Assembly: GCA_964016885.1 (NCBI GenBank)
Contig: CAXHJY010000292.1
Location: 26,410-90,409 of the forward strand
DNA length: 64,000 bases
Direction: 5' to 3'
From: Eledone cirrhosa
Taxonomy: Eukaryota
Position 1 is the first letter of the stretch. Each line of letters opens with the position of its first letter. The notes beneath the pieces were generated by a model. It was not told the origin of the DNA. It saw only the letters and a program-made list of their open reading frames with translations, and searched no databases. Below are positions 7,718-49,591 of the stretch, in pieces. A program made the position numbers and the translations under genes.

Positions 7718-7776
7718 GCATACATATATATATATATATATATAAGATCAAATGATGGTTAAAGGAGTTCCATATA

Positions 7777-7843
7777 TTTTATTATGCGCATTTCAAAAAC
7801 AAACATCATCAAGCAATAATATTTGTGTTTTCATCAGATAAAA
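7777..7843 (-). ncRNA. Minimal type I hammerhead ribozyme (left PLE arm)
   Basis: Minus: TTTTAT-CTGATGA-stem II-GAAA-TGCGCA-TA-ATAAAA. Confidence 0.85.
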
Positions 7844-7939
7844 CAGGAGAACATGATATGAAGGCTAAAAAACACTTGTTGATAGTGCAGTTTTAAATCA
7901 ACATATGAAAAGTGGTTTTAGATTGATGTGTGATATTGG

Positions 7940-8345
7940 GAAAAATATTTTATTTTGAGAGGGGTGGGGGAGGATGAAAAGGGAAGGAGATGAGAGGGAG
8001 AGATGGGTGATAGAGAGAAAGAGATAGTTTTTATAACTGAGAGGAGATATATTTTTTACATAGAGGGGTTGAAAACCGTTGGAAGATACTGTATAAATTA
8101 AAAATTTTGAAAATTAACGAAGGGAGGATATGTGCGAGGAAAAAATATTTTATTTAGGGAGGGGGGGGCGATGAAAAAAAGGGGGGAGGAGATGAGAGTG
8201 AAGGTGGAGAGGGAGAGATGGGTGATAGAGAGAAAGAGATAGTTTTTATAACTGAGAAAAAGATATATTGTTTTAATATAGAGAGGTTGGGAACCGTTGG
8301 AAGATAATGTATAAATTAAAGGAATTTGAAAATTAACGAAGGGAA
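7940..8345. repeat. ~200 bp tandem duplication in PLE 3' region (mirrored at ~13965-14372)
   Basis: GGAGAGATGGGTGATAGAGAGAAAGAGATAG...AATTAACGAAGGGA occurs twice in tandem. Confidence 0.85.
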
Positions 8346-8819
8346 ATTATGTATGAAGATAGAGAGAAAAAAATAATAATTGTGGGTGAATATTCTAACG
8401 TCAAAAGAAGAAATGTATGTATTGTGGCAATTTCAAAATTAGCGAAGAGAAAAATTGTTAAGGTTTGTGTGTAGAAGGATTTGAGAAAAATAATGTGAAG
8501 TTAAAGTTTGTATATTGAATTGATATGTATTAATAATGAGTTCGTTGATGGGGAGAAAAAAAATAATAATAAATTAAGGATGAAATTGAGATTAAAAAGA
8601 TTTATGATAGAGAGAAAAAATAATAATGATTGCGGATGAATATTCAAAATGTCAAAAACAAATGTTATTATTTTACGAGAAGATAGAATGAGGGTAATGA
8701 GTAAACGAGTATTATAGAGTGTATAATGCCCTTTAAAGTAAGGTAGATGGGTATATTTTAAAGAGGTGTATGTATATGTGCCTTTGAGAAAAGATTCTAA
8801 ATTGATAAAGAATTGAATA

Positions 8820-11045
8820 TTAACTGTATACTTTGTGAAAAGTTCTATGGAATTTATGCAGGCAGATAGAAAACAAATCTGAGCGTCTATTTATTATAGA
8901 ATCTAGGTTAGAGATAATGGTAAATTTTTCATTTAGGCAGAGATTACAGATTTTAGATAGAGAGCTGTTCAAGTATGAGGATGCAGAAGAAATCTTTTTC
9001 CAAAAGATGTTATATTTAATGTTTTTGTCTTTTAAGGACCATATGAGTTCTGAGAGAGCAGTGTTAGTTCTTTTAAGTTTGTATTTGAAAGATGAATGAT
9101 GATTATAGAGACGAGCTTTAAAAGAGGTGGAAGTGGAGCCAAAATAGGTGAAGGAATTGGTGCTAGTTATAATTTTACATTCATAAATTAAGTTTTTATC
9201 GAGGCAATGGTTGTTGAGAGGACATTTATTTTTAATGCGGCAGTTGCAATTAGAGAGATTATTAATGAGTGATCTAGTGTTATCTATAGAAGGAATTGGA
9301 TTGGAGAAGTTGTTTGCGATAGGAATAATAGGAATAATAGTTTCTTGATTTAGAGTTGGATTATGAACATTTAGCGAAGTTGTGTTTGACGTTGTATTTG
9401 GGTTTACAGAAGTTAGCCTAGGGTTTACAATGACGTCGGGAGTACTATTACTGTTATTATGAAATTCAATATTGGAAGGAAGAGATTTAGTATTTAATAT
9501 TTTGTTGTTGTGTTTAGAGATGATGTTGGAAATATTGGAGGATGTAGAATACGAAAATTTGATGGTGTGTTTGTTAAATATTTTACTATAGATATGTGAG
9601 GGAGGGAAGCATTTATTTAAGGCACTAAAAAATAATTTAGGAATATTGTTATTAATAGAGATGGAGAAAGGAGCATTATACCAGATTATGTTTTTGTATC
9701 TAGGTCTTTTATTAAAATTATTGGAATGGTCATGATTAATTATTCTACTGTAAGTTTTCCTAGAACTTGTTTCTTTATTATATTTGATTTTGTCTGGATA
9801 GCCGGCTTTAGAAAGTGCGTTATTATAGTAATTGGCGTTAGCATCAAAGATGTTTTTATTAGAAGATATGTTAGATATTCTATTTCCAATATTATTAACT
9901 ATAGCATTCTTGATATTGGTAGGATGGTTAGATTTAAAGTTAACATAATTAAGATTCTCATTGTTTTTATGGTAAGGGTAATATAGGCCAGTGTCAAGAT
10001 TAAGAGATACATCCAAGAAATTAGCTAGTTTGATACTATTATCAAATTCAATTTTTAGGTTATGTTGGTTAAAGAGATTACGTATATTGTTCTTAATAAT
10101 ATTAAGTTTAACTATATTGCAATTTAGGATAGTAAAGAGTCCATCGTCACGATAAATTCCACCGCGAAGTTGAGGAATTTTCCGACTCAAAGAGTTCAAA
10201 ATGAAGATACCAATTAAATCAGTCAATTGGGATGAATCGGATGCTCCCATTGTGATGTCGAAGTTGTTAGAGGTATCGGCTCTGGTCCAATATTCGTTGT
10301 TGAACTCTAGGATGGTTTTACGTGCGGTGAGGATGATGTGAAGTTCATCTGTGGTGATGTCAGAATATTTAAGTGCGAAAGATAGAGCATTATTGAGAAG
10401 TGAAGGCGAAATGGAGGAATAGTAGCTGGCAATATCGAATTGAATAAATTTTAGTTTGTTTTTATTATCCAATTTGTTGAACCAGCCAATCACTTCAGAA
10501 GTACCAAACCATAAATTTAGGTTTAAAGAAGAGCAATTAGAACTAACCTGTGGGATAATCCTATCCAAGATGGCTTTACTAACAACCCCCAGATCAGATT
10601 TAGAGGGGGCGATTAATCTAACAGGTAGTTCAGTGCGAAAATTGTTTTTGTGATCCTTGAGATTTATCCTCGGAGTTCTTGGGAGGAATGGTTCGGTCTT
10701 TTTTTCAATGCCAAGTTTTGACATAATCTCATAGGCTTCAAGGTTTATGCATTCTAAATTTTTATGGTTGGTTTTACGATACTTTTTCCTAAGTTCCTTT
10801 AGGATAAGGTTGTTATAATTATCCTTGGAAATACCATATAGGTTATTGGTTTTGTCAGAGTGGACTAAAACATTTTTTGAGGAATTTAGGTTATAGATTG
10901 TGTTCTTGAGATTTACAAGGTGCTCTTGTCCTTTGTAAGGGTATCTCTTGAATTTAAGATTTTTTATTATTTTAGTTAATTCTTCCTCGAATTGTGCTAG
11001 ATTTTTGTTGGAAGGAGGATTTCGTCTAGAATTAAAAAGATGATC
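8820..11045 (-). CDS. PLE reverse transcriptase + GIY-YIG endonuclease, 5'-truncated
   Basis: Frame is open 107 codons upstream of the annotated Met and includes VHSDKTNNLY; motifs LKDHK, FDIASYY, TMGA, YRDDG, FLDV; C-terminal CNC..CPL..C, LIY..YFG, CNLC..EK. Confidence 0.9.
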   Translation of the reverse strand, partial: DHLFNSRRNPPSNKNLAQFEEELTKIIKNLKFKRYPYKGQEHLVNLKNTIYNLNSSKNVLVHSDKTNNLYGISKDNYNNLILKELRKKYRKTNHKNLECINLEAYEIMSKLGIEKKTEPFLPRTPRINLKDHKNNFRTELPVRLIAPSKSDLGVVSKAILDRIIPQVSSNCSSLNLNLWFGTSEVIGWFNKLDNKNKLKFIQFDIASYYSSISPSLLNNALSFALKYSDITTDELHIILTARKTILEFNNEYWTRADTSNNFDITMGASDSSQLTDLIGIFILNSLSRKIPQLRGGIYRDDGLFTILNCNIVKLNIIKNNIRNLFNQHNLKIEFDNSIKLANFLDVSLNLDTGLYYPYHKNNENLNYVNFKSNHPTNIKNAIVNNIGNRISNISSNKNIFDANANYYNNALSKAGYPDKIKYNKETSSRKTYSRIINHDHSNNFNKRPRYKNIIWYNAPFSISINNNIPKLFFSALNKCFPPSHIYSKIFNKHTIKFSYSTSSNISNIISKHNNKILNTKSLPSNIEFHNNSNSTPDVIVNPRLTSVNPNTTSNTTSLNVHNPTLNQETIIPIIPIANNFSNPIPSIDNTRSLINNLSNCNCRIKNKCPLNNHCLDKNLIYECKIITSTNSFTYFGSTSTSFKARLYNHHSSFKYKLKRTNTALSELIWSLKDKNIKYNIFWKKISSASSYLNSSLSKICNLCLNEKFTIISNLDSIINRRSDLFSICLHKFHRTFHKVYS

Positions 11046-11573
11046 AAAATTAGCGAAGAGAAAAATTGTTAAGGTTTGTTTGTAGAAGGATTTGAGAAAA
11101 ATAATGTGAAGTTAAAGTTTGTATATGTCATTGATATGTATTAATAATGAGTTCGTTGATGGGGAGAAAAAATTAATAATAAATTAAGGATGAAATTGAG
11201 ATTAAAAAGATTTATGATAGAGAGAAAAAATAATAATGATTGCGGATGAATATTCAAAATGTCAAAAACAAATGTTATTATTTTACGAGAAGATAAAATG
11301 AGAGTAATGAGTAAACGAGTATTATAGAGTGTATAATGCCCTTTAAAGTAAGGTAGATGGGTATATTTTAAAGAGGTGTATGTATATGTGCCTTTGAGAA
11401 AAGATTCTAAATTGATAAAGAATTGAATATTAACTGTATACTTTGTGAAAAGTTCTATGGAATTTATGCAGGCAGATAGAAAACAAATCTGAGCGTCTAT
11501 TTATTATAGAATCTAGGTTAGAGATAATGGTAAATTTTTCATTTAGGCAGAGATTACAGATTTTAGATAGAGA
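11044..11573 (-). repeat. Internal duplicate of PLE ORF end + 3' region (copy of 8433-8963)
   Basis: Near-identical to 8433-8963; lies in the spacer between the arms. Confidence 0.9.
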
Positions 11574-11587
11574 TAGAGTTTGAGATT

Positions 11588-13492
11588 ATGTCAAAACTTG
11601 GCATTGAAAAAAAGACCGAACCATTCCTCCCAAGAACTCCGAGGATAAATCTCAAGGATCACAAAAACAATTTTCGCACTGAACTACCTGTTAGATTAAT
11701 CGCCCCCTCTAAATCTGATCTGGGGGTTGTTAGTAAAGCCATCTTGGATAGGATTATCCCACAGGTTAGTTCTAATTGCTCTTCTTTAAACCTAAATTTA
11801 TGGTTTGGTACTTCTGAAGTGATTGGCTGGTTCAACAAATTGGATAATAAAAACAAACTAAAATTTATTCAATTCGATATTGCCAGCTACTATTCCTCCA
11901 TTTCGCCTTCACTTCTCAATAATGCTCTATCTTTCGCACTTAAATATTCTGACATCACCACAGATGAACTTCACATCATCCTCACCGCACGTAAAACCAT
12001 CCTAGAGTTCAACAACGAATATTGGACCAGAGCCGATACCTCTAACAACTTCGACATCACAATGGGAGCATCCGATTCATCCCAATTGACTGATTTAATT
12101 GGTATCTTCATTTTGAACTCTTTGAGTCGGAAAATTCCTCAACTTCGCGGTGGAATTTATCGTGACGATGGACTCTTTACTATCCTAAATTGCAATATAG
12201 TTAAACTTAATATTATTAAGAACAATATACGTAATCTCTTTAACCAACATAACCTAAAAATTGAATTTGATAATAGTATCAAACTAGCTAATTTCTTGGA
12301 TGTATCTCTTAATCTTGACACTGGCCTATATTACCCTTACCATAAAAACAATGAGAATCTTAATTATGTTAACTTTAAATCTAACCATCCTACCAATATC
12401 AAGAATGCTATAGTTAATAATATTGGAAATAGAATATCTAACATATCTTCTAATAAAAACATCTTTGATGCTAACGCCATTTACTATAATAACGCACTTT
12501 CTAAAGCCGGCTATCCAGACAAAATCAAATATAATAAAGAAACAAATTCTAGGAAAACTTACAGTAGAATAATTAATCATGACCATTCCAATAATTTTAA
12601 TAAAATACCTAGATACAAAAACATAATCTGGTATAATGCTCCTTTCTCCATCTCTATTAATAACAATATTCCTAAATTATTTTTTAGTGCCTTAAATAAA
12701 TGCTTCCCTCCCTCACATATCTATAGTAAAATATTTAACAAACACACCATCAAATTTTCGTATTCTACATCCTCCAATATTTCCAACATCATCTCTAAAC
12801 ACAACAACAAAATATTAAATACTAAATCTCTTCCTTCCAATATTGAATTTCATAATAACAGTAATAGTACTCCCGACGTCATTGTAAACCCTAGGCTAAC
12901 TTCTGTAAACCCAAATACAACGTCAAACACAACTTCGCTAAATGTTCATAATCCAACTCTAAATCAAGAAACTATTATTCCTATTATTCCTATCGCAAAC
13001 AACTTCTCCAATCCAATTCCTTCTATAGATAACACTAGATCACTCATTAATAATCTCTCTAATTGCAACTGCCGCATTAAAAATAAATGTCCTCTCAACA
13101 ACCATTGCCTCGATAAAAACTTAATTTATGAATGTAAAATTATAACTAGCACCAATTCCTTCACCTATTTTGGCTCCACTTCCACCTCTTTTAAAGCTCG
13201 TCTCTATAATCATCATTCATCTTTCAAATACAAACTTAAAAGAACTAACACTGCTCTCTCAGAACTCATATGGTCCTTAAAAGACAAAAACATTAAATAT
13301 AACATCTTTTGGAAAAAGATTTCTTCTGCATCCTCATACTTGAACAGCTCTCTATCTAAAATCTGTAATCTCTGCCTAAATGAAAAATTTACCATTATCT
13401 CTAACCTAGATTCTATAATAAATAGACGCTCAGATTTGTTTTCTATCTGCCTGCATAAATTCCATAGAACTTTTCACAAAGTATACATTTAA
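11588..13492 (+). CDS. PLE reverse transcriptase + GIY-YIG endonuclease, 5'-truncated (second arm)
   Basis: 634 aa ORF differing from the left arm at only a few residues (e.g. NANY/NAIY, KRPR/KIPR). Confidence 0.9.
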   Translation: MSKLGIEKKTEPFLPRTPRINLKDHKNNFRTELPVRLIAPSKSDLGVVSKAILDRIIPQVSSNCSSLNLNLWFGTSEVIGWFNKLDNKNKLKFIQFDIASYYSSISPSLLNNALSFALKYSDITTDELHIILTARKTILEFNNEYWTRADTSNNFDITMGASDSSQLTDLIGIFILNSLSRKIPQLRGGIYRDDGLFTILNCNIVKLNIIKNNIRNLFNQHNLKIEFDNSIKLANFLDVSLNLDTGLYYPYHKNNENLNYVNFKSNHPTNIKNAIVNNIGNRISNISSNKNIFDANAIYYNNALSKAGYPDKIKYNKETNSRKTYSRIINHDHSNNFNKIPRYKNIIWYNAPFSISINNNIPKLFFSALNKCFPPSHIYSKIFNKHTIKFSYSTSSNISNIISKHNNKILNTKSLPSNIEFHNNSNSTPDVIVNPRLTSVNPNTTSNTTSLNVHNPTLNQETIIPIIPIANNFSNPIPSIDNTRSLINNLSNCNCRIKNKCPLNNHCLDKNLIYECKIITSTNSFTYFGSTSTSFKARLYNHHSSFKYKLKRTNTALSELIWSLKDKNIKYNIFWKKISSASSYLNSSLSKICNLCLNEKFTIISNLDSIINRRSDLFSICLHKFHRTFHKVYI

Positions 13493-14468
13493 TATTCAAT
13501 TCTTTATCAATTTAGAATCTTTTCTCAAAGGCACATATACATACACCTCTTTAAAATATACCCATCTACCTTACTTTAAAGGGCATTATACACTCTATAA
13601 TACTCGTTTACTCATTACCCTCATTCTATCTTCTCGTAAAACAATAACATTTGTTTTTGACATTTTGAATATTCATCCGCAATCATTATTATTTTTTCTC
13701 TCTATCATAAATCTTTTTAATCTCAATTTCATCCTTAATTTATTATTATTTTTTTCTCCCCATCAACGAACTCATTATTAATACATATCAATTCAATATA
13801 CAAACTTTAACTTCACATTATTTTTCTCAAATCCTTCTACACACAAACCTTAACAATTTTTCTCTTCGCTAATTTTGAAATTGCCACAATACATACATTT
13901 CTTCTTTTGACGTTAGAATATTCACCCACAATTATTATTTTTTTCTCTCTATCTTCATACATAATTTCCCTTCGTTAATTTTCAAATTCCTTTAATTTAT
14001 ACATTATCTTCCAACGGTTCCCAACCTCTCTATATTAAAACAATATATCTTTTTCTCAGTTATAAAAACTATCTCTTTCTCTCTATCACCCATCTCTCCC
14101 TCTCCACCTTCACTCTCATCTCCTCCCCCCTTTTTTTCATCCTTTCCCCCCCCTCCCTAAATAAAATATTTTTTCCTCGCACATATCCTCCCTTCGTTAA
14201 TTTTCAAAATTTTTAATTTATACAGTATCTTCCAACGGTTTTCAACCCCTCTATGTAAAAAATATATCTCCTCTCAGTTATAAAAACTATCTCTTTCTCT
14301 CTATCACCCATCTCTCCCTCTCATCTCCTTCCCTTTTCATCCCCCCCCCCCTCTCTAAATAAAATATTTTTCCCAATATCACACATCAATCTAAAACCAC
14401 TTTTCATATGTTGATTTAAAACTGCACTATCAACAAGTGTTTTTTAGCCTTCATATCATGTTCTCCTG

Positions 14469-14535
14469 TTTTATCTGATGAAAACACAAATATTATTGCT
14501 TGATGATGTTTGTTTTTGAAATGCGCATCATAAAA
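14469..14535 (+). ncRNA. Minimal type I hammerhead ribozyme (right PLE arm)
   Basis: TTTTAT-CTGATGA-AAACACAAATATTATTGCTTGATGATGTTTGTTTTT-GAAA-TGCGCA-TC-ATAAAA; 6 bp stem I, palindromic stem III, AUC cleavage triplet. Confidence 0.88.
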
Positions 14536-14661
14536 TATATGGAACTCCTTTAACCATCTTTTGATCTTATATTATGCATACTCCAGTCCCACAAACTGTA
14601 GAGTGCTTCTTATCCGATATCTGCATTGCTTTATTGTACTACAATAAAACTCACCTCCCAC

Positions 14662-15861: not shown

Positions 15862-15907
15862 AATATATATATACATACATATGCATATATATATATACAT
15901 ATATATA

Positions 15908-15938
<31 letters not shown>

Positions 15939-16054
15939 ATATGTACATATGCATATATATATACATATACATATATGTACATATATATATACATACATAC
16001 ATATGCATATACATATATATACATACATATGCATATACATATATACATATATAC

Positions 16055-16087
<33 letters not shown>

Positions 16088-16172
16088 CATATGCATATAT
16101 ATATATACATATATGTACATATATATACATACATATATATATATACATATATATACATACATATATATATAC

Positions 16173-16225
<53 letters not shown>

Positions 16226-16252
16226 CATATATATACATACATATATATATAC

Positions 16253-16289
<37 letters not shown>

Positions 16290-16380
16290 CATATATATAA
16301 ACATATATATACATACATATATATAAACATATATATACATACATATATATAAACATATATATACATACATATATATAAAC

Positions 16381-16447
<67 letters not shown>

Positions 16448-16517
16448 TATACATATATATATACATATATATACATATATATACATATATATATACATAT
16501 ATATACATACATATATA
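15862..16517. repeat. (TA)n/(TACA)n array
   Basis: Directly visible. Confidence 0.95.
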
Positions 16518-17122
16518 TGGTGGCTGCCAACTCGTTTTCGAGTACGGCCACTACTTTATATCCATGTAGGAGAACCCCTACCGATGCGCTGAACTACTGT
16601 GACTTTTTAGTCCAGCCAGCGACTTGAGAACTCTGGTACAAACACTACACTTTTGACAATTATTGACACATAGTGCTGGGCCCATGGTACCATGTGACGA
16701 CAAGTGCAGAGAGATCTCCTGATATAAATCAATGCCTGTGCCGTGAAGATTTTATAGTGAGCAAAGGCACTGCACAAAGCCAGTCCCACTCTCTTAACCA
16801 AGATGATATTTACCAAAAAGAAGAACAAGTCAACATCATTGGATACCATCAGGGTTGCAGGTGTTATATCAGAGTTTTCCTTCTCCTAGAATTCTGCCTT
16901 GACAAAGGCTAAGGGGTCATCTCTCCCGATGATTTTGGATGGCCATTGACTCTTAAGAGCTCCTTTGCCCTTTGACAGGTTTTGTTTTTAGTCCCACAGG
17001 ATGTCCAAAGTCACCCTCCTCACCAAGAAACCTTGATGGGGTTGCCAGTTTATTCGCCAACGACCCGACCATGAGACAGGTTGTACTGGGATACATGTTA
17101 CCAGTAGCACCAACTGGTGACC
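16518..17122 (-). mobile_element. ~610 bp non-autonomous RTE-derived element, copy 1
   Basis: Near-identical to copies at 27518, 44807 and 47699; flanked by TA arrays. Confidence 0.85.
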
Positions 17123-17568
17123 ATACATATATATACACATATATATACATACATATACACATATATACACATATATATACATACATATATATACACATAT
17201 ATATACATACATATATATAGACATATATATACATACATATATATAGACATATATATAGACATATATATACATACATATATATAGACATATATATACATAC
17301 ATATATATATATACATATATATACATACATATATATATACATATATATACATATATATATATACATATATATACATATATATATATATACATATATATAC
17401 ATATACATATATATACATATACATATATATACATACATATATATACATATATATACATATATATATATACACATATATATATACATATATATATACATAT
17501 ATATACATACATATATATACATATATATATACATACATATATATATATACATATATATACATACATAT

Positions 17569-17767: not shown

Positions 17768-20017
17768 CAAGAGACAGGCATGGAAAGAATGGAGAACGGG
17801 GGGAGCAGGGTACATTACATAGAGACCAAGAGGGAAGCTAGGCGACAAGTATACTTAGCTAGGAGGGAAGCAGAGGATAGGAAATTCAAGCATGTTTTGC
17901 AACGTGAGGACCAGAAACAGGAGGTATTCAAGATTGCGAAGCAGTGTGTCAGAGATAGTTGTGATGTCATTGGAGAGAAGTGTATCCGGAATGATAAAGG
18001 TGAGCTTGCCCTCACAAGTGCTGAGAAGAAAGATGCATGGAAGAGTCATTATGATAGATTACTAAATGAGGAGAATGCATGGGGAGAAGAGACCCTACCC
18101 CAAGTAGACCCTATAGAGGGACCAGCAGTACAAGTCAGCAGCAGCGTAGTAAGTAAGGCAATCAAAGATATGAAGATGGGGAAGGCAACCGGTCCATCGG
18201 CTATAGCTGCCGAGATGCTGAAGGCATCTGGGTCTGTAGGTCACACTATAACCACACGTATCGTTAACCAGGTAATACTAGAAGGTGCCATACCAAAAGA
18301 TTGGTGCAGTAGCGTCATTGTCAACTGCTACAAAGGTAAAGGCGATGCACTAGATAGAGGAAACTATAGAGGTATGAAGTTGATGGACCAGGTCATGAAA
18401 GTAACAGAAAGAGTTATAGCACAGCTGATTAGGGACCGGGTGAATATAGACGAGATGCAATTTGGGTTTGTACCAGGAAGAGGCACCACTGATGCCTCTT
18501 CCTTGTGAGGCAATTACAGGAAAAGTACCTAGCTAAATGTAAGCCACTCTACTTGGCATTTGTCGACCTTGCGAAAGCCTTTGACAGAGTTCCACGTGCT
18601 GTAATCTGGTGGGCTCCTAGAAAACTAGGAGTAGATGAATGGCTTGTGAAAGCGGTACAAGCCATGTATAGGGGAGCAGTCAGCAAAGTTAGGATTAGCA
18701 ATGAGTATAGCGATGAATTTAGCGTACAGGTTGGGGTCCACCAGGGCTCTGTTCTTAGCCCCTCCTGTTCATCATAGTCCTGCAGTCAATAACGGAGGAG
18801 TTTAAGACCGGATGCCCATGGGAACTCCTGTATGCTGATGACCTCGCACTCATAGCTGAATCTATGGTAGAACTAGAGAAGAAATTCCAAACTTGGAAGC
18901 AGGGACTAGAAAGAAAGGGTCTCAAAGTCAACATGACAAAGACTAAGGTCCTTGTAAGTAGACGAGAAAACAAATGCAAACAATAGGTTCACAAGAGATG
19001 TAGCGGGATCTCAGGAAGCTTAATTAAGAATGTGGGATTCACATGCAGCAGCTGTGCTGAGACAGCACGCAGCAAACAGCCACAGGAAACAAGTACCACC
19101 AATCTCTGGGAGGGCTCTGTAGAAACAGTAGACAGCTTCTGCTACCTAGGTGACCGAATTAGCAGCGGAGGTGGGTGTTCAGAAAGTACAATAACTAGGG
19201 TAAGAACGGGATCGAAGAAGTTTAGGGAACTACTACCACTGCTAGCTGCAAAAGGCTTCTCCCTCAGAATGAAAGGCAGACTGTATGATGCGTGTATCCG
19301 AACTGCGATGTTGCATGGTAGTGAGACCTGGACGCTGAAGGTGGAAGACTTACGTAGATTAGAGAGAAACGAAGCCTGCATGCTCCGATGGATGTGTAAC
19401 AGTAATATACATGAACGACAAAGCATAAATGAATTGAGAGAGAGACTGAGCATAAGAGGAGTCAAATGCTGTGTGCAGGAGAGGCGGTTGCGCTGGTATG
19501 GACATGTGATGCGTATGAAGGATGACAGCTGCATAAAAAGGTGCAGAGTACTAGAAGTTGATGGAAACCGCGGAGTGGGGAGACCCAAGATGACCTGGGA
19601 TGAGGTGATAAAAGCCGACCTTACCCAATTACACCTCTCAAAGGCAATGACACATGACCGTGACTTCTGGCGTCACGCAGTAATACAGAGTACCCGACCT
19701 CCCATGGGTACAAGCTGAAGCATATAGACAATATGCCCCAACACCCCTCACCGCAAGGTGGTCGTGGAGGTGCCACGGCAAAAAAGCACCCAGCCCACAC
19801 TGTAAAGTGGACGTGTAGGCGCCACGAAAAAGCAGGCAGCACTCACTGTAAATGAGGTTGGTGTTAGGAAGGGCATCCAGCTGTAGAAATCAAGCCAAAT
19901 CAGTTCCTGTATGAGCAAGGCATGGTCAGCCAACCAGACACTGCCCACAACAGGACAACCCGTCTAACCCATGCTAGCGTGGAAGAACGGACGTAAAACG
20001 GTGATGATGATGATGAT
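17768..20017 (+). mobile_element. 5'-truncated, frameshifted RTE LINE (family A)
   Basis: Highly similar to 20292-22626; frameshifts near 18495 and 18760; 78 bp deletion near 18972; YADD; (TGA)n tail. Confidence 0.92.
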
Positions 20018-20111
20018 ACATATATATATATATATATATACATACACATATATATATATACATATACATATATATATACATATATATATATACATATACA
20101 TATATATATAC

Positions 20112-20142
<31 letters not shown>

Positions 20143-20215
20143 CATACACATATATATATATACATATACATATATATATACATATATATATATACATATA
20201 TATATATACATATAC

Positions 20216-20291
<76 letters not shown>

Positions 20292-20293
<2 letters not shown>

Positions 20294-23190
20294 CATCATC
20301 ATCATCATCATCACCGTTTTACGTCCGTTCTTCCACGCTAGCATGGGTTAGACGGGTTGTCCTGTTGTGGGCAGTGTCTGGTCGGCTGACCATGCCTTGC
20401 TCATACAGGAACTGATCTGGCTTGATTTCTACAGCTGGATGCCCTTCCTAACACCAACCTCATTTACAGTGAGTGCTGGGTGCTTTTTCGTGGCGCCTAC
20501 ACGTCCACTTTACAGTGTGGGCTGGGTGCTTTTTTGCCGTGGCACCTCCACGACCACCTTGCGGTGGGGGGGGGGGGGGCATATTGTTTATATGCTTCAG
20601 CATGTACCCATGGGAGGTCGGGTACCCTGTATTACTGCGTGACGCCAGAAGTCACGGTCGTGTGTCATTGACTTTGAGAGGTGTAGTTGGGTAAGGTCGG
20701 CTTTTATCACCTCATCCCAAGTCATCTTGGGTCTCCCCACTCCGCGGTTTCCATCAACTTCTAGTGCTCTGCACCTTTTTATGCAGCTGTCATCCTTCAT
20801 ACGCATCACATGTCCATACCAGCGTAACCGCCTCTCCTGCACGCAGCATTTGATTCCTCTTATGCTCAGTCTCTCTCTCAATTCATTTATGCTTTGTCGT
20901 TCACGTATATTACTGTTACACATCCATCGGAGCATGCAGGCTTCGTTTCTCTCTAATCTACGTAGGTCTTCCACCTTCAGCGCCCAGGTCTCACTACCAT
21001 GCAACATCGCTGTTCGGATACACGCATCATACAGTCTGCCTTTCATTCTGAGGGAGAAGCCTTTTGCAGCTAGCAGTGGTAGTAGTTCCCTAAACTTCTT
21101 CCATCCCGTTCTTACCCTAGTTATTGTACTTTCTGAGCACCCACCTCCGTTGCTAATTCGGTCACCTAGGTAGCAGAAGCTGTCTACTGTTTCTACAGGG
21201 CCCTCCCAGAGATTGGTGGTACTTGTTTCCTGTGGCTGTTTGCTTGCTGTTTCAGCACAGCTGCTGCATGTGAATCCTACATTCTTAATTAAGCTTCCTG
21301 AGATCCCGGTACATCTCTTGTGTACCCATTGTTTGCATTTGGGGCAAAGAATGGAGTTCCTACCTACACCTTTCCTACATACTGAGCAAGGCCATTTCCC
21401 TGAGGGGATCTGGGTTCTGTTTTCTCGTCTACTTATAAGGACCTTAGTCTTTGTCATGTTGACTTTGAGGCCCTTTCTCTCTAGTCCCTGCTTCCAGGTT
21501 TGGAATTTATTCTCTAGTTCTACCATAGATTCAGCTATGAGTGCGAGGTCATCAGCATACAGGAGTTCCCATGGGCATCCGGTCTTAAACTCCTCCGTTA
21601 TTGCCTGCAGGACTATGATGAACAGGAGAGGGCTAAGAACAGAGCCCTGGTGGACCCCAACCTGTACGCTAAATTCCTCGCTATACTCATTGCCAATCCT
21701 AACTTTGCTGACTGCTCCCCTATACATGGCTTGTACCGCTTTCACAAGCCATTCATCTACTCCTAGTTTTCTAGGAGCCCACCAGATTACTGCACGTGGA
21801 ACTCTGTCAAAGGCTTTCTCAAGGTCGACAAATGCCAAGTAGAGTGGCTTACTTTTAGCTAGGTACTTTTCCTGTAATTGCCTCACAAGGAAGAGCGCAT
21901 CAGTGGTGCCTTTCCCTGGAACAAACCCAAATTGCATCTCGTCTATATTCACCCGGTCCCTAATCAGCTGTGCTATAACTCTTTCTGTTACTTTCATGAC
22001 CTGGTCCATCAACTTTATACCTCTATAGTTTCCTCTATCTAGTGCATCGCCTTTACCTTTGTAGCAGTTGACAATGATGCTACTGCACCAATCTTTTGGT
22101 ATGGCCCCCTCTAGTATTACCTGGTTAACGATACGTGTGGTTATAGTGTGACCTACAGACCCAGATGCCTTCAGCATCTCGGCAGCTATACCCGATGGAC
22201 CGGTTGCCTTCCCTATCTTCATATCTCTGATTGCCTTACTTACTACGCTGCCGCTGACTTGTACTGCTGGTCCCTCTATAGGGTCTACGTGGAGTAGGGT
22301 CTCTTCTTCCCATGCATTCTCCTCATTTAGTAATCTATCATAATGACTCTTCCATGCATCTTTCTTCTCAGCACTTGTGAGGGCAAGCTCACCTTTATCA
22401 TTCCGGATACACTTCTCTCCAATGACATCACAACTATCTCTGACACACTGCCTCGCAATCTTGAATACCTCCTGTTTCTGGTCCTCACGTTGTAAAACAT
22501 GCTTGAATTTTCTATCCTCTGCTTCCCTCCTAGCTAAGTATACTTGTCGCCTAGCTTCCCTCTTGGTCTCTATGTAATGTACCCTGCTCCCCCCGTTCTT
22601 CCATTCTTTCCATGCCTGTCTCTTGGCCTTGACTGCTTCATCTACCTTATTGTTCCACCACCAAGTCACTCTCCTCCTGCTTGAGGTCTTACTCCAGCCA
22701 CAAACCTCATCCGTCGCCTCTAGTAAGTTATTTTTTAGGAACTCCCAGTTCTCTTCTACGTTAAATGTCTCTATCTGTTCTTCTTTACTGTCGTAGGCGT
22801 TGAGTAAAATATCTTTAAATCTGTTACTGGTTGAGGGGACTTTCAGCTTCCAGATCTTTCTTCTCCAGGTTGGCCTCTGTTTCAGGGCTCGTCTAGTTCT
22901 GACCGTGAGGTCGCTGACAACTAAGCTATGTTGGGATGTACATTCCTCACTAGGGAAGGCTTTTGTGTTTACGACCGTCCATCTGTCACGTCCTCTGATG
23001 AGGATAAAATCTAACTGACTAGAGTGCTCCCCTGATCTATAGGTGATCAGGTGGTTGTCGGGTTTTTTAAAGTTTGTGTTACATATCGACATGTCATTGG
23101 CGTCGCAGAATTCTAGAAGTCTGAATCCTTCCTCATTCCTTGTGCCAACTCCATGGCCTCCATGTACTCTATTGAAGCCGTCGCAGTGTT
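20292..23190 (-). mobile_element. 5'-truncated RTE LINE (family A) with uninterrupted remaining ORF
   Basis: Partial APE (SQLDFILI, SQHSLV), RT (YKGKGD..NYRGI, FVDLEKAFD, VHQGSVLSP, YADD), PHD-like finger, 3' UTR, (TGA)n tail. Confidence 0.93.
20597..23092 (-). CDS. RTE ORF: partial AP endonuclease + RT + C4HC3 PHD-like finger
   Basis: 831 aa ORF with the motifs above; frame continues upstream to the junction at ~23190. Confidence 0.9.
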   Translation of the reverse strand: MSICNTNFKKPDNHLITYRSGEHSSQLDFILIRGRDRWTVVNTKAFPSEECTSQHSLVVSDLTVRTRRALKQRPTWRRKIWKLKVPSTSNRFKDILLNAYDSKEEQIETFNVEENWEFLKNNLLEATDEVCGWSKTSSRRRVTWWWNNKVDEAVKAKRQAWKEWKNGGSRVHYIETKREARRQVYLARREAEDRKFKHVLQREDQKQEVFKIARQCVRDSCDVIGEKCIRNDKGELALTSAEKKDAWKSHYDRLLNEENAWEEETLLHVDPIEGPAVQVSGSVVSKAIRDMKIGKATGPSGIAAEMLKASGSVGHTITTRIVNQVILEGAIPKDWCSSIIVNCYKGKGDALDRGNYRGIKLMDQVMKVTERVIAQLIRDRVNIDEMQFGFVPGKGTTDALFLVRQLQEKYLAKSKPLYLAFVDLEKAFDRVPRAVIWWAPRKLGVDEWLVKAVQAMYRGAVSKVRIGNEYSEEFSVQVGVHQGSVLSPLLFIIVLQAITEEFKTGCPWELLYADDLALIAESMVELENKFQTWKQGLERKGLKVNMTKTKVLISRRENRTQIPSGKWPCSVCRKGVGRNSILCPKCKQWVHKRCTGISGSLIKNVGFTCSSCAETASKQPQETSTTNLWEGPVETVDSFCYLGDRISNGGGCSESTITRVRTGWKKFRELLPLLAAKGFSLRMKGRLYDACIRTAMLHGSETWALKVEDLRRLERNEACMLRWMCNSNIRERQSINELRERLSIRGIKCCVQERRLRWYGHVMRMKDDSCIKRCRALEVDGNRGVGRPKMTWDEVIKADLTQLHLSKSMTHDRDFWRHAVIQGTRPPMGTC

Positions 23191-23492
23191 GGGGAGGGTC
23201 ATATTTGTGTAATATTGCCAGAATTAATAACAGAACACACTCACTGTTTGGTTGGTTTTCGCTTCTCGCTGTCTTTTATATATATATATCTGCGATCTAA
23301 CTTACTCGGTCCTCAATGTTGCCATTGACTGACCGGCGGTCAAAAATAATACAGATACAATATAGACAAACACATATATATATAGTTTACATAATTTACA
23401 TAAATCTTTCGTTGCACATCTGCAACATCGTCAGTGGTGTTATATTCATTGTTCCTCCTGTTGTGTTGTATGTCTACGCCATTTTTTTTGTG
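23189..23492 (-). mobile_element. Pseudo-LTR fragment of the Neptune-like PLE, fused to the RTE 5' end
   Basis: Near-identical to 56935-57228. Confidence 0.85.
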
Positions 23493-24523: not shown

Positions 24524-25849
24524 ATTTTATCTGTGATCTTAAGGGAGCTAATATACCATATAGCCTTAATTGGCGTTTAGTAGCACGCTCTAACCACCTT
24601 TCTACACATACTAAGTTTTATAATCTCTGATCCTCGAGACACACTCTATAATCTTCTCTAGCGCATCTTTACTTAATAGAAAGTCTGAGATATTCTCTTC
24701 TTGCCCCCACGCTATTTCTAATTCATACTTTTATTATAAACCTAAACGTTCTAGTGGTACAAATTGTACCCATTAGCTGATATATTCCATTATTTATTTT
24801 TTAGTTTAGGTTCTTTTGTTTGCCAACATTATTATTATCATCATTATTATCATTGGTTTTTGATGACTCTTTATTCTAGCTCTCATAATCTTTTGGCTAC
24901 TGTACCATATCTATCTTCTTACGCATTAAATTTTCACTATTACACCTTATGAATGTATATAAGATTATATATTTTACGCTATTTATTTTATTTTATTCTT
25001 ATTTTTATTTTTATTCGGATTCTTCTTTGGAACCCCCTCCCCCTCCCCCCCCATGCGCACATAAACTTATTGTCAACCCCTCCAAATTGACTATGATTAT
25101 ATCTAACCCCCCCTCTTTTACGCTCCTTTCTATTATGTAATATAGTATATCGACTATATTTTATGCCCCTTTGCATCCTCCATATATTTCTTCATTTCTG
25201 TCCCTATTAGCCTACCTTAATTCTGCTTAAGTCAGTTTTTTAGATATCGTTATGTATATGATAATAACAAATTTTCATTCCTTTTTGTAAACATTTGTAA
25301 CGAAATATTAACGTTTATAAACTTTAATGACTTAAACTATAGCTAATATTATACTGCCTTATTGGATATTCTAAATATTTTTAATATTAATTTATCAAAT
25401 AGGGTTTTCGAGTCATTTGCAGGGGTTGTTTCCTTAGTTTTTACTTAACTACTTAACTGCATGTGAGACCTAAATGTATACGTTTGTTTTTGTTTTTTAA
25501 TTTCCGGTTGATTCTATTTATTTATTTTATTCTATATGTTATAGTTTATATTTTATTTGTAATACTACTGTGCATTATATTGACTGTCTGGCACTTACTC
25601 ACTCATCCATATACATATCTGTTCACCAACCTTGTAATTATAAGTAATTATATATTATATTGTGTTAATTTATTTTATATAATATATTATATTATATTGT
25701 ATTTTTTATTGTAATATTGATCCTTATTACTTACCGTTAATTATATGTAAGATTATGATATGTTAAACTTTATATATCATGTAAGATGTTTGTACTTTTG
25801 TACCATCAACATTTTTTGGGGGGTATTGTACAATTTATTTTTCCTCACA

Positions 25850-25850
<1 letters not shown>
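24524..25850 (+). mobile_element. Degenerate 5'-truncated PLE (GIY-YIG C-terminus + AT-rich 3' region)
   Basis: [22 protein letters not shown]...FYNL then, after a frameshift, LETHSIIFSSASLLNRKSEIFSSCPH; aligns with LIWSLKDKNIKYNIFWK...CNLCLNEKFTII...INRRSDLFSICLH of the 8820/11588 ORFs. Confidence 0.75.
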
Positions 25851-27517
<1,667 letters not shown>

Positions 27518-28127
27518 TGGTGGCTGCCAACTCGTTTTCGAGTACGGCCACTACTTTATATCCATGTAGGAGAACCCCTACCGATGCGCTGAACGAGTGT
27601 GACTTTTGAGTCCAGCCAGCGACTTGAAAACTCTGGTACAAACACTACACTTGTGACAATTATTGACACATAGTGCTGGGCCCATGGTACCATGTGATGA
27701 CAAGTGCAGAGAGATCTCCAGATATAAAGCAATGCCTGTGCTGTGAAGCTTTTATAGTGAGCAAAGGCACTGCACAAAGCCAGTCCCACTCTCTTAACCA
27801 AGATGATATTTACCAAAAAGAAGAACAAGTCAACATCATTGGATACCATCAGGGTTGCAGGTGTTATATCAGAGTTTTCCTTCTCTTAGAATTCTGCCTT
27901 GACAAAGGCTAAGGGGTCATCTCTCCCAGTGATTTCGGATGGCCATTGACTCTTAAGAGCTCCTTTGCCCTTCGACAGGTTTTGTTTTTAGTCCTGCAGG
28001 ATGTCCAAAGTCACCCTCCTCACCAAGAAACCTTGGTGGGGTTGCCAGTTTAGTCGCCAACGACCCGACCATGAGACAGGTTGTACTGGGATACATGTTA
28101 CCAGTAGCACCAAGTGGTGACCTGACA
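27518..28127 (-). mobile_element. ~610 bp non-autonomous RTE-derived element, copy 2
   Basis: Near-identical to the other three copies. Confidence 0.85.
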
Positions 28128-28140
28128 TATATATATATAC

Positions 28141-28195
<55 letters not shown>

Positions 28196-28217
28196 CATAC
28201 ATACATACATACATACA

Positions 28218-28249
<32 letters not shown>

Positions 28250-28250
28250 C

Positions 28251-28300
<50 letters not shown>

Positions 28301-28301
<1 letters not shown>

Positions 28302-43970: not shown

Positions 43971-43991
43971 TATATACATAAATATATATAC

Positions 43992-44044
<53 letters not shown>

Positions 44045-44806
44045 TATACATAAATATATATACATATATATATATACATATATATATATATACATATATA
44101 CATATATATATATACATATATATACATATATATACATAAATATATATACATATACATATATATATATACATATATATACATATATATACATATATATATA
44201 TACATATATATACATATATATACATAAATATATATACATATATATATATATGTATATATATATATGTATATATATATATATGTATATATATATGTATATG
44301 TATATATATATGTATATATATGTATATATATATGTATATGTATATATATGTATATATAAATATATATATATACATAAATATATATATATACATATATACA
44401 TACATATATATATACATATATAGACATACATATACATATATACACATACATATACATATATACACATACATATACATATATACATATATATATACATGCA
44501 TATACATATATATATACATATATATACATATATATATACATACATATACATATACATATACATACATATATATGTATATATGTGTATATATATACACACA
44601 TATATATATACATACACACATATATATATACATACATATACATATATACATATATACATATATATGTATATATGTGTATATATATACACATATATATATA
44701 CATATATATATACATACACACATATATATATATACATATATATATACATACATATACATATATACATATATATGTATATATGTGTATATATATACACATA
44801 TATATA

Positions 44807-45416
44807 TGGTGGCTGCCAACTCGTTTTCGAGTACGGCCACTACTTTATATCCATATAGGAGAACCCCTACCGATGCACTGAACGAGTGTGACCTTTTAGT
44901 CCAGCCAGCGACTTGAAAACTCTGGTACAAACACTACACTTGTGACAAATATTGACACATAGTGCTGGGGCCATGGTACCCTGTGACGACAAGTGCAGAG
45001 AGATCTCCAGATATAAAGCAATGCCTGTGCCGTGAAGCTTTTATAGTGAGCAAAGGCACTGCACAAAGCCAGTCCCACTCTCTTAACCAAGATGATATTT
45101 ACCAAAAAGAAGAACAAGTCAACATCATTGGATACCATCAGAGTTGCAGGTGTTATATCAGAGTTTTCCTTCTCCTAGAATTCTGCCTTGACAAAGGCTA
45201 AGGGGTCATCTCTCCCGGTGATTTTGGATGGCCATTGACTCTTAAGAGCTCCTTTGCCCTTTGACAGGTCTTGTTTTTAGTCCTGCAGGATGTCCAAAGT
45301 CACCCTCCTCACCAAGAAACCTTGGTGGGGTTGCCAGTTTAGTCGCCAACGACCCGACCATGGGACAGGTTGTACTGGGATACATGTTACCAGTAGCACC
45401 AACTGGTGACCTGACA
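44807..45416 (-). mobile_element. ~610 bp non-autonomous RTE-derived element, copy 3
   Basis: Near-identical to the other copies. Confidence 0.85.
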
Positions 45417-45750
45417 TATATATATACATATATATAAACATACATATATATATACATATATATGTGTATATGTATACACATATATATATACATATATACA
45501 TATATACATATATATATTCATATATATGTGTATATGTATACACATATACATATATACATATATATGTGTATATAGATATACATATATACATATATACATA
45601 TGTATATATATATACATATATACATATATACATATATATATACATATGTACATATATATATACATATATATATTTATATATATACATATATATATATGTA
45701 TATATATACACATATATATATATATATACACATATATATATATATACATA

Positions 45751-45906
45751 TGTGGAGGTGCCACGCAAAAAAAAGCACTCACTGTAAATGAGGTTGGTGT
45801 TAGGAAGGGCATGCAGCGGTAGAAATCAAGCCAGAATCAGTTCCCGTCCAGCCTTGCAAGCAGGGAAAAGTGGACGTGAAATGAAATGAAAAAATGAAAA
45901 AATGAT
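45751..45906 (+). mobile_element. 5'-truncated SINE (3' tail only)
   Basis: Matches 50030-50180; (AATGA)n tail. Confidence 0.8.
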
Positions 45907-46896: not shown

Positions 46897-47251
46897 TGGC
46901 GGCACATGGCTTAGTGGTTAGAGCATTGGCCTTGCAATCGAAAGGTTGTGAGTTCAATTCTCAGTCCGGGTGATGTGTTGTTTCCTTGAGCAAGACACTT
47001 TATTTCACATAGCCCCAGTTTACTCAGCTGTAGAAATGAGATGATAGGGACTGGGTCCCTATCATTCCACTGCAAAGTGGTCATGGAGGTGCCACGGCAA
47101 AAAAGCACCCAGCCCACAATGCAAGGTGGCCGTGGAGGTGCCACGGCAAAAAAGCACCCAGCACTCACAGTAAATGAGGTTGGTGTTAGGAAGGGCATCC
47201 AGCAGGGAGAAGCGGACGTAAAAATGAAATGAAATGATGATGAAATGATGA
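46897..47251 (+). mobile_element. tRNA-derived SINE with RTE-like 3' tail, copy 1
   Basis: A-box TGGCTTAGTGG, B-box GAGTTCAATTC, central CCTTGAGCAAGACACTT motif, tail homologous to the RTE family A 3' UTR. Confidence 0.88.
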
Positions 47252-47698
47252 TACATATATACATATATGCATATATATGTGTATATATATACACATATAT
47301 ATACATATATGTGTATATATATACACACATATATATATATACATATATACGTGTATATATATACATATATATATATACATACATATATACATGTATATAT
47401 ATACATATATATATACATATATACATGTATATATATACATATATACATGTATATATATACATATATATATATACATATATATATATACATATATATATAT
47501 ACATATATATATATACATATATACATGTATATATACACATATATATATATACATATCTTCGTGTATATATATACATATATATATATATATACATATATAC
47601 GTGTATATATATACATATATATATATACATATATATGTGTATATACATATATATATATACATATATATGTGTATATATATACATATATATATATATTA

Positions 47699-48307
47699 TG
47701 TCAGGTCACCAGTCGGTGCTACTGGTAACATGTATCCCAGTACAACCTGCCTCATGGTCGGGTCGTTGGCGACTAAACTGGCAACCCCACCAAGGTTTCT
47801 TGGTGAGGAGGGTGACTTTGGACATCCTGCAGGACTAAAACAAAACCTGTCAAAGGGCAAAGGAGCTCTTAAGAGTCAATAGCCATCCAAAATCACCGGG
47901 AGAGATGACCCCTTAGCCTTTGTCAAAGCAGAATTCTAGGAGAAGGAAAACTCTGATATAACACCTGCAACCCTGATGGTATCCAATGATGTTGACTTGT
48001 TCTTCTTTTTGGTAAATATCATCTTGGTTAAGAGAGTGGGACTGGCTTTGTGCAGTGCCTTTGCTCACTATAAAAGCTTCACAGCACAGGCATTGCTTTA
48101 TATCTGGAGATCTCTCTGCACTTGGCATCACATGGTACCATGGGCCCTGCAATATGTGTCAATAATGGTCACAAGTGTAGTGTTTGTATCAGAGTTTTCA
48201 AGTCGCTGGCTGGACTAAAAAGTCACATTCGCTCAGCGCATCGGTAGGGGTTCTCCTACATGGATATAAAGTAGTGGCCGTACTCGAAAACGAGTTGGCA
48301 GCCACCA
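47699..48307 (+). mobile_element. ~610 bp non-autonomous RTE-derived element, copy 4 (opposite orientation)
   Basis: Reverse complement of copies 1-3; encodes [18 protein letters not shown] near its 3' end; terminal ACTCG-AAAA-CGAGT hairpin. Confidence 0.85.
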
Positions 48308-48328
48308 TATATATATATATATACATAT

Positions 48329-48406
<78 letters not shown>

Positions 48407-48456
48407 GTATATATATATATGTATATATATGTATATGTATATATACATATATATAC

Positions 48457-48510
<54 letters not shown>

Positions 48511-48564
48511 GTATATATATATATGTATATATATATATGTATATGTATATATACATATATATAC

Positions 48565-48595
<31 letters not shown>

Positions 48596-49036
48596 CATAT
48601 ATATATACACACATATATATATACACACATATATATATACACACATATATATATACACACATATATATATATATACACATATATATATATACATACATAT
48701 ATATACACATATATATATATATACATACATATATATATATATACATATATATATACACATATATATATATATACATATACACATATATATATATATATAT
48801 ATATACATACATATATATATATACATATATATATACACATATATATCTACACATATATATATATATACATACATATATATATACATACATATATATATAC
48901 ATACATATATATATACATATTTATATATACATATATACATATACATATATACATATATATATATACATATATACATATATATATATACATATATACATAT
49001 ATATATATACATATATATATATACATATATATATAT

Positions 49037-49378
49037 ATTGAAAAACTGAATCCTCCGTTCGATCATGAATACCACGAGCTTGCCAGTCACATAAGTCTGA
49101 TATTTGATTTCATATTCAAAGAAACACTTTAAACGTATAATCATTTGATTTGTCCAGTTGTATTTTTCTCAACCTGTTAGTTCTATCGTTACTTTGGTAT
49201 ATTATTGTGTGTTAAATTCTGCCTACCACAATGTTGGATTTGTCAAGCTATTTAAACGCATGTTATTACTCTAAGGACATAACTTATCGAGTGCTTCGCT
49301 AACTCATCATTTCATCATAAGTAGGCGAAATTTGCTTGCAAAACTCCAGAGATTCGATTTTACTAAATTTCCAATTAT
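49037..49378. other. Unclassified unique island within TA array
   Basis: ~340 bp of complex sequence between TA arrays, no match noticed elsewhere in the window. Confidence 0.5.
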
Positions 49379-49393
49379 ACATATATATATGTA

Positions 49394-49435
<42 letters not shown>

Positions 49436-49467
49436 CATATATATGTATATGTATATATATATACATA

Positions 49468-49591
<124 letters not shown>

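What the first reader, a model, noticed from the sequence alone, without database searches (positions are those of the whole stretch)
16518..17122. Four full-length copies of a ~610 bp non-autonomous element apparently built from RTE ends
Seen: copies at 16518, 27518, 44807 (minus) and 47699 (plus) share the same 3' end and 5' ends within ~5 bp, unlike the variably truncated LINEs nearby; no tRNA head. The 5' part has several hairpins (GGTCACCAGTT/AACTGGCAACC, CACCAAG/CTTGGTG) and GGAGAAGGAAAACTCTGA, a motif I recall from RTE 5' UTRs. The 3' part encodes a C2H2 remnant ([23 protein letters not shown], 48176-48247) missed by the ORF track, then an ACTCG-AAAA-CGAGT stem-loop. Inference: a bipartite RTE deletion derivative whose parent is not in this window.
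Basis: partly seen in the sequence, partly recalled or inferred. Interest (0 to 1): 0.7.

Follow-up and report, generated by a model that had tools for sequence, protein, structure and literature searches.

The report
Gutted retrotransposon that outnumbers its parent
This 610-letter repeat is the front and back end of a 4,000-letter jumping gene joined together with nearly all of the protein-coding middle missing; it sits in tens of thousands of places, mostly inside TA-rich repeats, and likely spread by borrowing its parent's enzyme, which makes it a new example of a known kind of genomic parasite.

Summary
Confirmed and resolved. The four copies are real (96-97% identical to the plus-strand copy; three lie on the minus strand) and belong to a family with 26,672 exact matches to a 3' 23-mer in this 3.0-Gb genome. 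I found the parent outside the window: a ~4.06-kb single-ORF LINE of RTE build ('RTE-delta': endonuclease, reverse transcriptase, three C2H2 fingers). Element nt 1-429 is the parent's 5' UTR and nt 428-608 its last 181 nt, joined at a 2-3 nt microhomology; column majorities differ at 5 positions. The parent is rare (99 exact matches) and no intact copy was seen; both are equally diverged, so they likely spread together. Copies are often 5'-truncated (17 of 30), share one 3' end, show 9-14 bp target duplications where these can be read, and lie in (TA)/(TGTA) tracts (79% against 6.6% background). Two sister RTE lineages made similar derivatives. The first 100 nt are more conserved between lineages (85%) than the ORF (58-66%) but match no Rfam ribozyme; what fixes the 5' end is open. 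New member of a known kind (bipartite non-autonomous RTE).

The parts
47697..48308 (+). Copy 4, full length including the 5' TATG
   Evidence: 5' TATG from phase-break count
47697..48129 (+). 5' half = parent's 5' UTR (stops 51 nt before the parent's likely start codon)
   Evidence: 96.3-97.9% to parent copies L320, L322, L327
47697..47890 (+). Conserved structured head shared by sister RTE lineages and their derivatives; function untested
47939..47956 (+). GGAGAAGGAAAACTCTGA motif, present in the parent's 5' UTR and in variant form in the other RTE 5' UTRs of this genome
48127..48129 (+). Deletion junction, 2-3 nt microhomology (RTC); about 3.45 kb of the parent is missing here
48128..48308 (+). 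3' half = parent's last 181 nt (linker, last C2H2 finger, stop, 61-nt 3' UTR)
   Evidence: 93.4-94.5% for this copy, 96.1-97.2% for copy 2, to L320, L322, L327
48176..48247 (+). Remnant of the third C2H2 finger and stop codon of the parent ORF; the parent's start codon is not retained
48282..48295 (+). 3' stem-loop, likely the recognition signal for the parent's reverse transcriptase (inferred); stem kept with other loops in sister lineages
16517..17122 (-). Copy 1, 5' end a few nt short
27517..28129 (-). Copy 2, full length
44806..45418 (-). Copy 3, full length
15863..17568 (.). (TA)/(TACA) array holding copy 1 (the other three copies lie in like arrays: 25847-28301, 43971-45751, 47251-51715)

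Best explanation
The element is the 5' UTR (429 nt) and the last 181 nt of a 4.06-kb RTE-type LINE joined at a single deletion point, and it was likely copied into tens of thousands of sites by the parent's endonuclease/reverse transcriptase acting in trans. Shown: both halves map to one parent family; one junction with a 2-3 nt microhomology; the parent's start codon is gone; fixed 3' end, variable 5' truncation, short target duplications; strong enrichment in (TA)/(TGTA) tracts; same divergence as the parent. Inferred: one deletion event made a master copy; the retained 5' UTR lets full-length copies be transcribed (most likely an internal promoter with a fixed start at TATG); the 3' stem-loop and terminal CAT(GT/AT) recruit the parent's protein and pair with nicked (TA)/(TGTA) DNA for target-primed reverse transcription; being short, many insertions stay full length and can found further copies, so the derivative overtook its parent roughly 270-fold by exact matches.
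For: Parent: 6 of 17 extended loci carry the element's 5' half at their 5' end (92.8-97.9%) and its 3' half at their 3' end with endonuclease, RT and three C2H2 fingers between. In 27 of 30 parent 3' ends the match begins at nt 428-430. Column majorities of 45 derivative copies and of 6 (5') / 39 (3') parent copies differ at 5 positions; divergence in the 3' half 2.8% against 2.5%, p = 0.55. Counts: 26,672 exact 3' 23-mers, 99 parent-specific 3' and 19 parent-specific 5' 23-mers; reversed-pattern controls 0. 17 of 30 unbiased copies are 5'-truncated with the same 3' end. 8 of 201 copies have a readable 9-14 bp duplication, each starting at the terminal AT. Purine/pyrimidine-alternating 30-mers flank 102 of 129 copies upstream and 103 of 129 downstream against 6.6% in twenty arbitrary 10-kb regions. 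One chimera joins derivative nt 1-440 to a parent 3' part (L315), as a template switch between the two RNAs would.
Against: No intact parent ORF was seen: longest open frame 626 aa among 150 listed hits and in 6 near-full copies, so the driver cannot be caught at work, while the related RTE-alpha has intact ORFs and an 85%-similar tail. The parent sample used for dating was picked by best hit and may look younger than it is. Most target duplications cannot be read inside microsatellites (193 of 201). Transcription and the promoter were not tested. RTE placement was not tested on a tree with named references.
Confidence: 0.9

Rival explanations
1. Same origin, but most copies were made by the younger, still intact RTE-alpha family (cross-mobilisation) after or beside the parent.
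For: RTE-alpha has open frames of 1,150-1,260 aa in 14 of 58 rows at 65-66% identity (7 of the 58 loci were fetched, 6 matched alpha at about 97% over the whole ORF and one over residues 217-1227); 12 full-length copies are 97.1-100% identical to L195; its tail matches element nt 575-608 at 83-85% and it inserts in the same repeats. The parent has only a few hundred copies and no intact ORF seen.
Against: The element's age matches the parent's (2.8% against 2.5%), not alpha's younger copies; its tail stayed identical to the parent's; alpha has its own derivative with its own tail (family B).
Confidence: 0.1
2. The fixed 5' end is cut by an undescribed self-cleaving ribozyme in the first 100-190 nt rather than set by an internal promoter, so copies are expressed from read-through transcripts.
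For: All lineages start at the same base; first 100 nt are 85% identical between delta and beta against 58-66% in the ORF; the head folds better than shuffles (z -2.15) and an HDV-like pseudoknot can be drawn with 95.5% of cells paired. Several RTE families are reported or predicted to carry 5' ribozymes (PMC5786205 discussion; PMC8501958 passages for twister variants at the 5' end of Perere-3).
Against: No ribozyme family among 61 and 5 Rfam matches at E up to 10. The HDV-like drawing needs two 4-nt linkers that the canonical fold lacks (recalled), one of its three P3 pairs is broken in 3 of 16 heads, and its covariation (10 of 500 shuffles) is within what relatedness alone gives; the plain nested fold scores alike (62 of 500). 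The copied 5' end reaches 3 nt beyond the G where such a ribozyme would cut (phase break 35 of 102 at step -5/-4 against 3-10 of 102 further out). A promoter would also explain the conservation.
Confidence: 0.15
3. A solo LTR, MITE or other DNA-transposon derivative, or a tRNA-headed SINE.
For: Uniform length and many full-length copies; TA-rich insertion sites as for Tc1/mariner.
Against: No terminal inverted or direct repeats; no tRNA; one-sided 5' truncation; every base is accounted for by one LINE.
Confidence: 0.01

Closest known systems
Bipartite non-autonomous RTEs: RTE-N2_Lch (5' 214 bp + 3' 70 bp of RTE-4_Lch), RTESINE1/2, WALLSI3, MAR4_MD, Bov-A (PMC5786205, parts 1-3 of 5 of the text read; figures not seen)
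   Same: Only the two ends of one RTE, no small-RNA head, no ORF, parent's true 5' end kept.
RTE-2_OV of Octopus vulgaris (PMC9115989, passages and section 6)
   Same: Single ORF with endonuclease, RT and C2H2 finger; microsatellite-rich 3' end.
   Different: Four of its published primers differ at 5-7 of 20 positions from the parent, so the parent is not shown to be this family; no non-autonomous derivative appears in the passages seen.
RTE insertion signature and microsatellite association (PMC6007223, abstract and section 16; PMC2887409, abstract)
   Same: First base of the target duplication matches the 3' repeat (A here); RTE 3' ends run into microsatellites.
   Different: Here both flanks are microsatellite in about 80% of copies, which points to insertion into existing (TA)/(TGTA) tracts and not only tail growth.
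RIME/Ingi, NARTc/L1Tc, Vingi and R2 internal-deletion derivatives (PMC5786205, passages)
   Same: Same deletion logic and trans-mobilisation.
   Different: Other LINE clades.

Membership tests
Bipartite non-autonomous LINE | 5' part is the 5' end of an autonomous LINE | tested here: met
   nt 1-429 at 95.8-99.1% to three parent copies, same first base
Bipartite non-autonomous LINE | 3' part is the 3' end of the same LINE | tested here: met
   nt 428-608 at 93.4-97.2%; 30 of 30 parent 3' loci match
Bipartite non-autonomous LINE | No coding capacity for the machinery | tested here: met
   six-frame translation; open frames of 47-77 aa in 150 of 150 hits
Bipartite non-autonomous LINE | Amplified as a unit by target-primed reverse transcription (fixed 3' end, 5' truncation, target duplications) | tested here: met
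   duplications readable in 8 of 201 copies only
Bipartite non-autonomous LINE | Mobilised in trans by the parent protein | not testable with these tools
   indirect only: equal age, one chimera
RTE clade (parent) | Single ORF with APE endonuclease and RT, no ORF1, no RNase H | tested here: met
   Pfam Exo_endo_phos E 1.8e-14, RVT_1 E 3e-21, zf-C2H2, no RNase H hit, on three pieces of two broken copies; about 480-nt 5' UTR leaves no room for ORF1; intact single ORFs in the sister family
RTE clade (parent) | Short 3' UTR ending in a microsatellite | tested here: met
   61-nt UTR then (ATGT)n or (AT)n; criterion from PMC2887409 abstract
RTE clade (parent) | RT groups with named RTE elements in a tree | not tested
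   no named reference set; none of the 120 listed of 1,870 homologues of the sister family carries a clade name; nearest solved structures are L1 ORF2p and R2; label also rests on the recalled GCWNVRTL-type N-terminal motif
SINE2/SINE3 (Pol III head) | tRNA- or 5S-derived head | tested here: not met
   ARAGORN 0 genes; no such Rfam match; the head is the parent's own 5' end
Solo LTR / MITE | Terminal direct or inverted repeats | tested here: not met
HDV-like ribozyme | Nested double pseudoknot with P2-P3 and P1-P1.1 directly adjacent, cleavage before G1 | tested here: not met
   needs two 4-nt linkers; a P3 pair broken in 3 of 16; copied 5' end extends beyond G1; canonical layout is recalled
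Any self-cleaving ribozyme | Site-specific self-cleavage in vitro | not testable with these tools
   Rfam gives no ribozyme hit

The most novel reading that the evidence does not exclude
The ~190-nt head, identical in start point across three RTE lineages and their derivatives and more conserved than their protein-coding DNA, is an undescribed self-cleaving or 5'-end-setting RNA that frees these elements from any read-through transcript, which would explain why this microsatellite-targeting RTE group repeatedly throws off very successful non-coding derivatives.
Probability: 0.13. Interest if true: 0.7.

Novelty: new member of a known kind. Interest (0 to 1): 0.3.

Why it matters
As it stands it is a clean, fully mapped example of a known process: a non-coding derivative that reached at least 27,000 and perhaps about 50,000 copies (rough estimate, 0.4-0.8% of the genome) from a parent with a few hundred. 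It shows that part of the large pool of unclassified short repeats in such genomes (893 'unclassified SINE' families among recent insertions in O. vulgaris, PMC13282606 passages) can be RTE deletion products rather than Pol III SINEs, and that three sister lineages did this in parallel. It also gives a matched set (three parents, three derivatives, one shared head, three tails) for testing how RTE 5' ends are made, what the 3' hairpin specifies and how (TA)/(TGTA) targeting works.

Tried and rejected
Protein search with the 47-aa remnant for longer homologues found nothing; the same query in the genome returned only 47-77 aa frames (150 of 150). Searches seeded with sister families found RTE-alpha and RTE-beta but not the parent. 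Exclusion patterns at guessed junctions found no parent: 0 hits, 97 hits that were mostly a subfamily with a short tandem duplication plus truncations (11 loci read), 1 hit that was a small deletion. The parent turned up by chance beside one of the 29 hits (L272). Loose ends at 48109-48112 in three public runs first looked like the junction; they sit on a GATC site and read GATC-GATC or GATC-AATC, which I read as Hi-C ligation joints, and the real junction is at 48127-48129, so I rejected them. Sequencing runs: no RNA holder listed, so nothing on expression. HDV-like fold drawn and counted, not supported; twister, pistol and hatchet layouts were compared from recall only and did not fit; Rfam gave none. 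RTE-2_OV identity not supported by four primers; its sequence may lie in supplements that were too large or not opened. Literature searches listed no paper on this octopus family, but Dfam and Repbase were not available, so it may already be catalogued. Earlier findings of this scan: none by sequence or words.

Full report
Observation. The four copies are at 16517-17122 (-), 27517-28125 (-), 44806-45414 (-) and 47701-48308 (+), 95.9-97.0% identical to the last. They share one 3' end; three share the first base and one lacks 3 nt. All four lie inside (TA)/(TACA) arrays. No other part of the window matches either half. There is no tRNA gene, no terminal repeat and no ribozyme among 61 Rfam matches at E up to 10, most of which are to the flanking TA repeats (also 5 weak matches on the parent's 5' UTR).

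Family size. The genome has 3.0 Gb in 1,796 contigs; its size, chromosome-scale contigs and repeat make-up suggest an octopus (inference). A DNA search scored 40 of 1,886 candidates, all 97-100% identical and 39 of 40 starting at nt 1. An exact 23-mer from the 3' end occurs 26,672 times, control 0; an exact 28-mer from the head 13,856 times, 86 of the first 100 with this family's letter. With about 2.8% divergence an exact 23-mer is kept in roughly half of the copies, so the true number may be near 50,000 (estimate); twenty arbitrary 10-kb regions held 2 copies. Contigs of other public runs also hold it, and in runs X4 and X8 a contig bridges the junction.

Signature of target-primed reverse transcription. 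Of 30 loci taken in genome order, 13 start at nt 1 and 17 are 5'-truncated, all with the same 3' end. Among 201 distinct copies, 8 have a readable duplication of 9-14 bp, each starting at the element's last two bases AT; the others lie in repeats where it cannot be read. Alternating purine/pyrimidine 30-mers flank 102 of 129 copies upstream and 103 of 129 downstream (this sample mixes best-hit and unbiased loci) against 6.6% in the arbitrary regions.

Relatives. Neighbouring loci showed elements with the same 5' module but other tails. Following them gave two autonomous families. RTE-alpha has intact ORFs of 1,125-1,227 aa in 5 of 150 hits and of 1,150-1,260 aa in 14 of 58 further rows, three C2H2 fingers, a 5' UTR 68% like element nt 190-396 and a tail 83-85% like nt 575-608. 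RTE-beta is older (copies 85-95% alike) and has the whole head and 5' UTR at 68-80%. Family B maps onto alpha ends (90% and 82%, with the head of the older type) and family C onto beta ends (88% and 84%), one copy of each tested.

The parent. Locus L272 held a truncated LINE end with three C2H2 fingers whose last 181 nt match the element. Its specific part found 242 candidates, 40 scored at 97-100%. All 30 fetched loci have RTE-like coding DNA upstream and the element's 3' part; the match starts at nt 428-430 in 27 of 30 and at 409, 419 and 457 in the rest. Of 17 loci extended upstream, 6 reach the 5' UTR, and there element nt 1-429 matches at 92.8-97.9%. Undeleted copies measure 4,021-4,074 nt. 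The window copies match L320, L322 and L327 at 95.8-99.1% (5' half) and 93.4-97.2% (3' half). The parent reads on for 51 nt to a likely start codon, then endonuclease (E 1.8e-14), RT (E 3e-21) and C2H2 fingers. The junction overlaps by TC or RTC. Majorities of derivative and parent differ at 5 positions; divergence in the 3' half is 2.8% (45 copies) and 2.5% (39 copies, best-hit biased), p = 0.55. Parent-specific 23-mers occur 99 times (3' side) and 19 times (5' side), about 1 to 270 against the shared 3' 23-mer. No parent copy with an open frame above 626 aa was seen among 150 listed hits. L315 joins derivative nt 1-440 to a parent 3' part.

Mechanism. Shown: origin by one internal deletion, loss of the start codon, spread with the marks of target-primed reverse transcription, strong preference for (TA)/(TGTA) tracts, same age as the parent. 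Inferred: the parent's protein bound the 3' stem-loop in trans; the stem is kept with different loops in alpha and beta tails, though the 66-nt tail folds only modestly better than shuffles (z -1.61). The terminal CAT likely pairs with the nicked repeat, in line with the link between 3' repeat and first duplicated base reported for RTEs (PMC6007223, section 16). Keeping the 5' UTR likely lets each full-length copy be transcribed, which would explain the expansion. Driving by alpha is the main rival (0.1).

The head. The first 100 nt are 85% identical between one delta and one beta copy, the next 100 77%, the endonuclease-RT region 58-66%, so the head is constrained or was exchanged recently. 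In 16 heads a nested set of hairpins pairs in 95.0% of cells and an HDV-like pseudoknot in 95.5%, but covariation is weak for both (62 and 10 of 500 shuffles; relatedness alone can give this) and only the first hairpin shows a clear two-sided change. The HDV-like drawing departs from the canonical layout (recalled) and from the mapped 5' end. I favour an internal promoter with a fixed start; a new ribozyme stays possible at about 0.13-0.15.

Comparison with what is known. An RTE with a C2H2 finger is published for O. vulgaris (PMC9115989, passages and section 6; one supplement opened, a variant file; others not read), but four of its primers do not fit the parent. PMC13282606 (passages) lists many unclassified SINE families in O. 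vulgaris without naming such derivatives in the passages seen. PMC8501958 (passages) and PMC2887409 (abstract) were used for ribozymes and for RTE features. Four searches listed no description of this family; repeat databases were not available.

Verdict. Observation confirmed, interpretation supported and completed by the parent. New member of a known kind; interest 0.3.

Noticed in passing
L053:150-745 (-), L140, L003:933-1450; L025:2790-3340 (-), L022; L034:2456-2690: Three further short families with the same 5' module and other tails: B (ends of RTE-alpha), C (ends of RTE-beta) and E (parent not found). Parallel bipartite derivatives from sister RTEs.
   Followed up: partly
L124-L128, L195-L199, L205, L206: RTE-alpha: young family with intact ORFs up to about 1,260 aa, three C2H2 fingers and a 300-500 nt microsatellite-filled 3' UTR before the tail. 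Its young copies have replaced the conserved head by other sequence that looks SINE-derived, while family B keeps the old head (L140).
   Followed up: partly
L160:5400-6414 (-): Another element with the same head (87% over nt 1-189) followed by a different RTE-like 5' UTR and no ORF in the locus; the head seems to be an exchangeable module.
   Followed up: no
L315 (G000:C1:53935538-53938718): Chimera of derivative nt 1-440 and the last 620 nt of the parent, as from a template switch.
   Followed up: partly
L227-L255: Subfamily with a short tandem duplication just before the junction (most of the 97 hits), a marker of a secondary master copy.
   Followed up: partly
L153, L154: Derivative copies that fold back at nt 533-538 into an inverted copy of themselves.
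   Followed up: no
L004, L075: A short repeat of the first 8 nt of the element lies about 10 nt upstream of the full copy, as from repeated priming at the 5' junction.
   Followed up: no
window 7740-14572: Inverted duplication (2,995 nt, 99.5%) of an element with a 763-aa frame (8820-11111) that reads like a Penelope-type RT plus GIY-YIG endonuclease (by eye, not scanned), with a 530-nt repeated end.
   Followed up: no
window 17768-22625: Palindrome centred near 20156, made of two inverted copies of a LINE whose 892-aa frame (20597-23275, -) has RVT_1 and a PHD finger.
   Followed up: no
runs X6, X7, X8 on window 48109-48116: Loose contig ends at a GATC site that read like Hi-C ligation joints; they mimic a biological junction.
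   Followed up: yes
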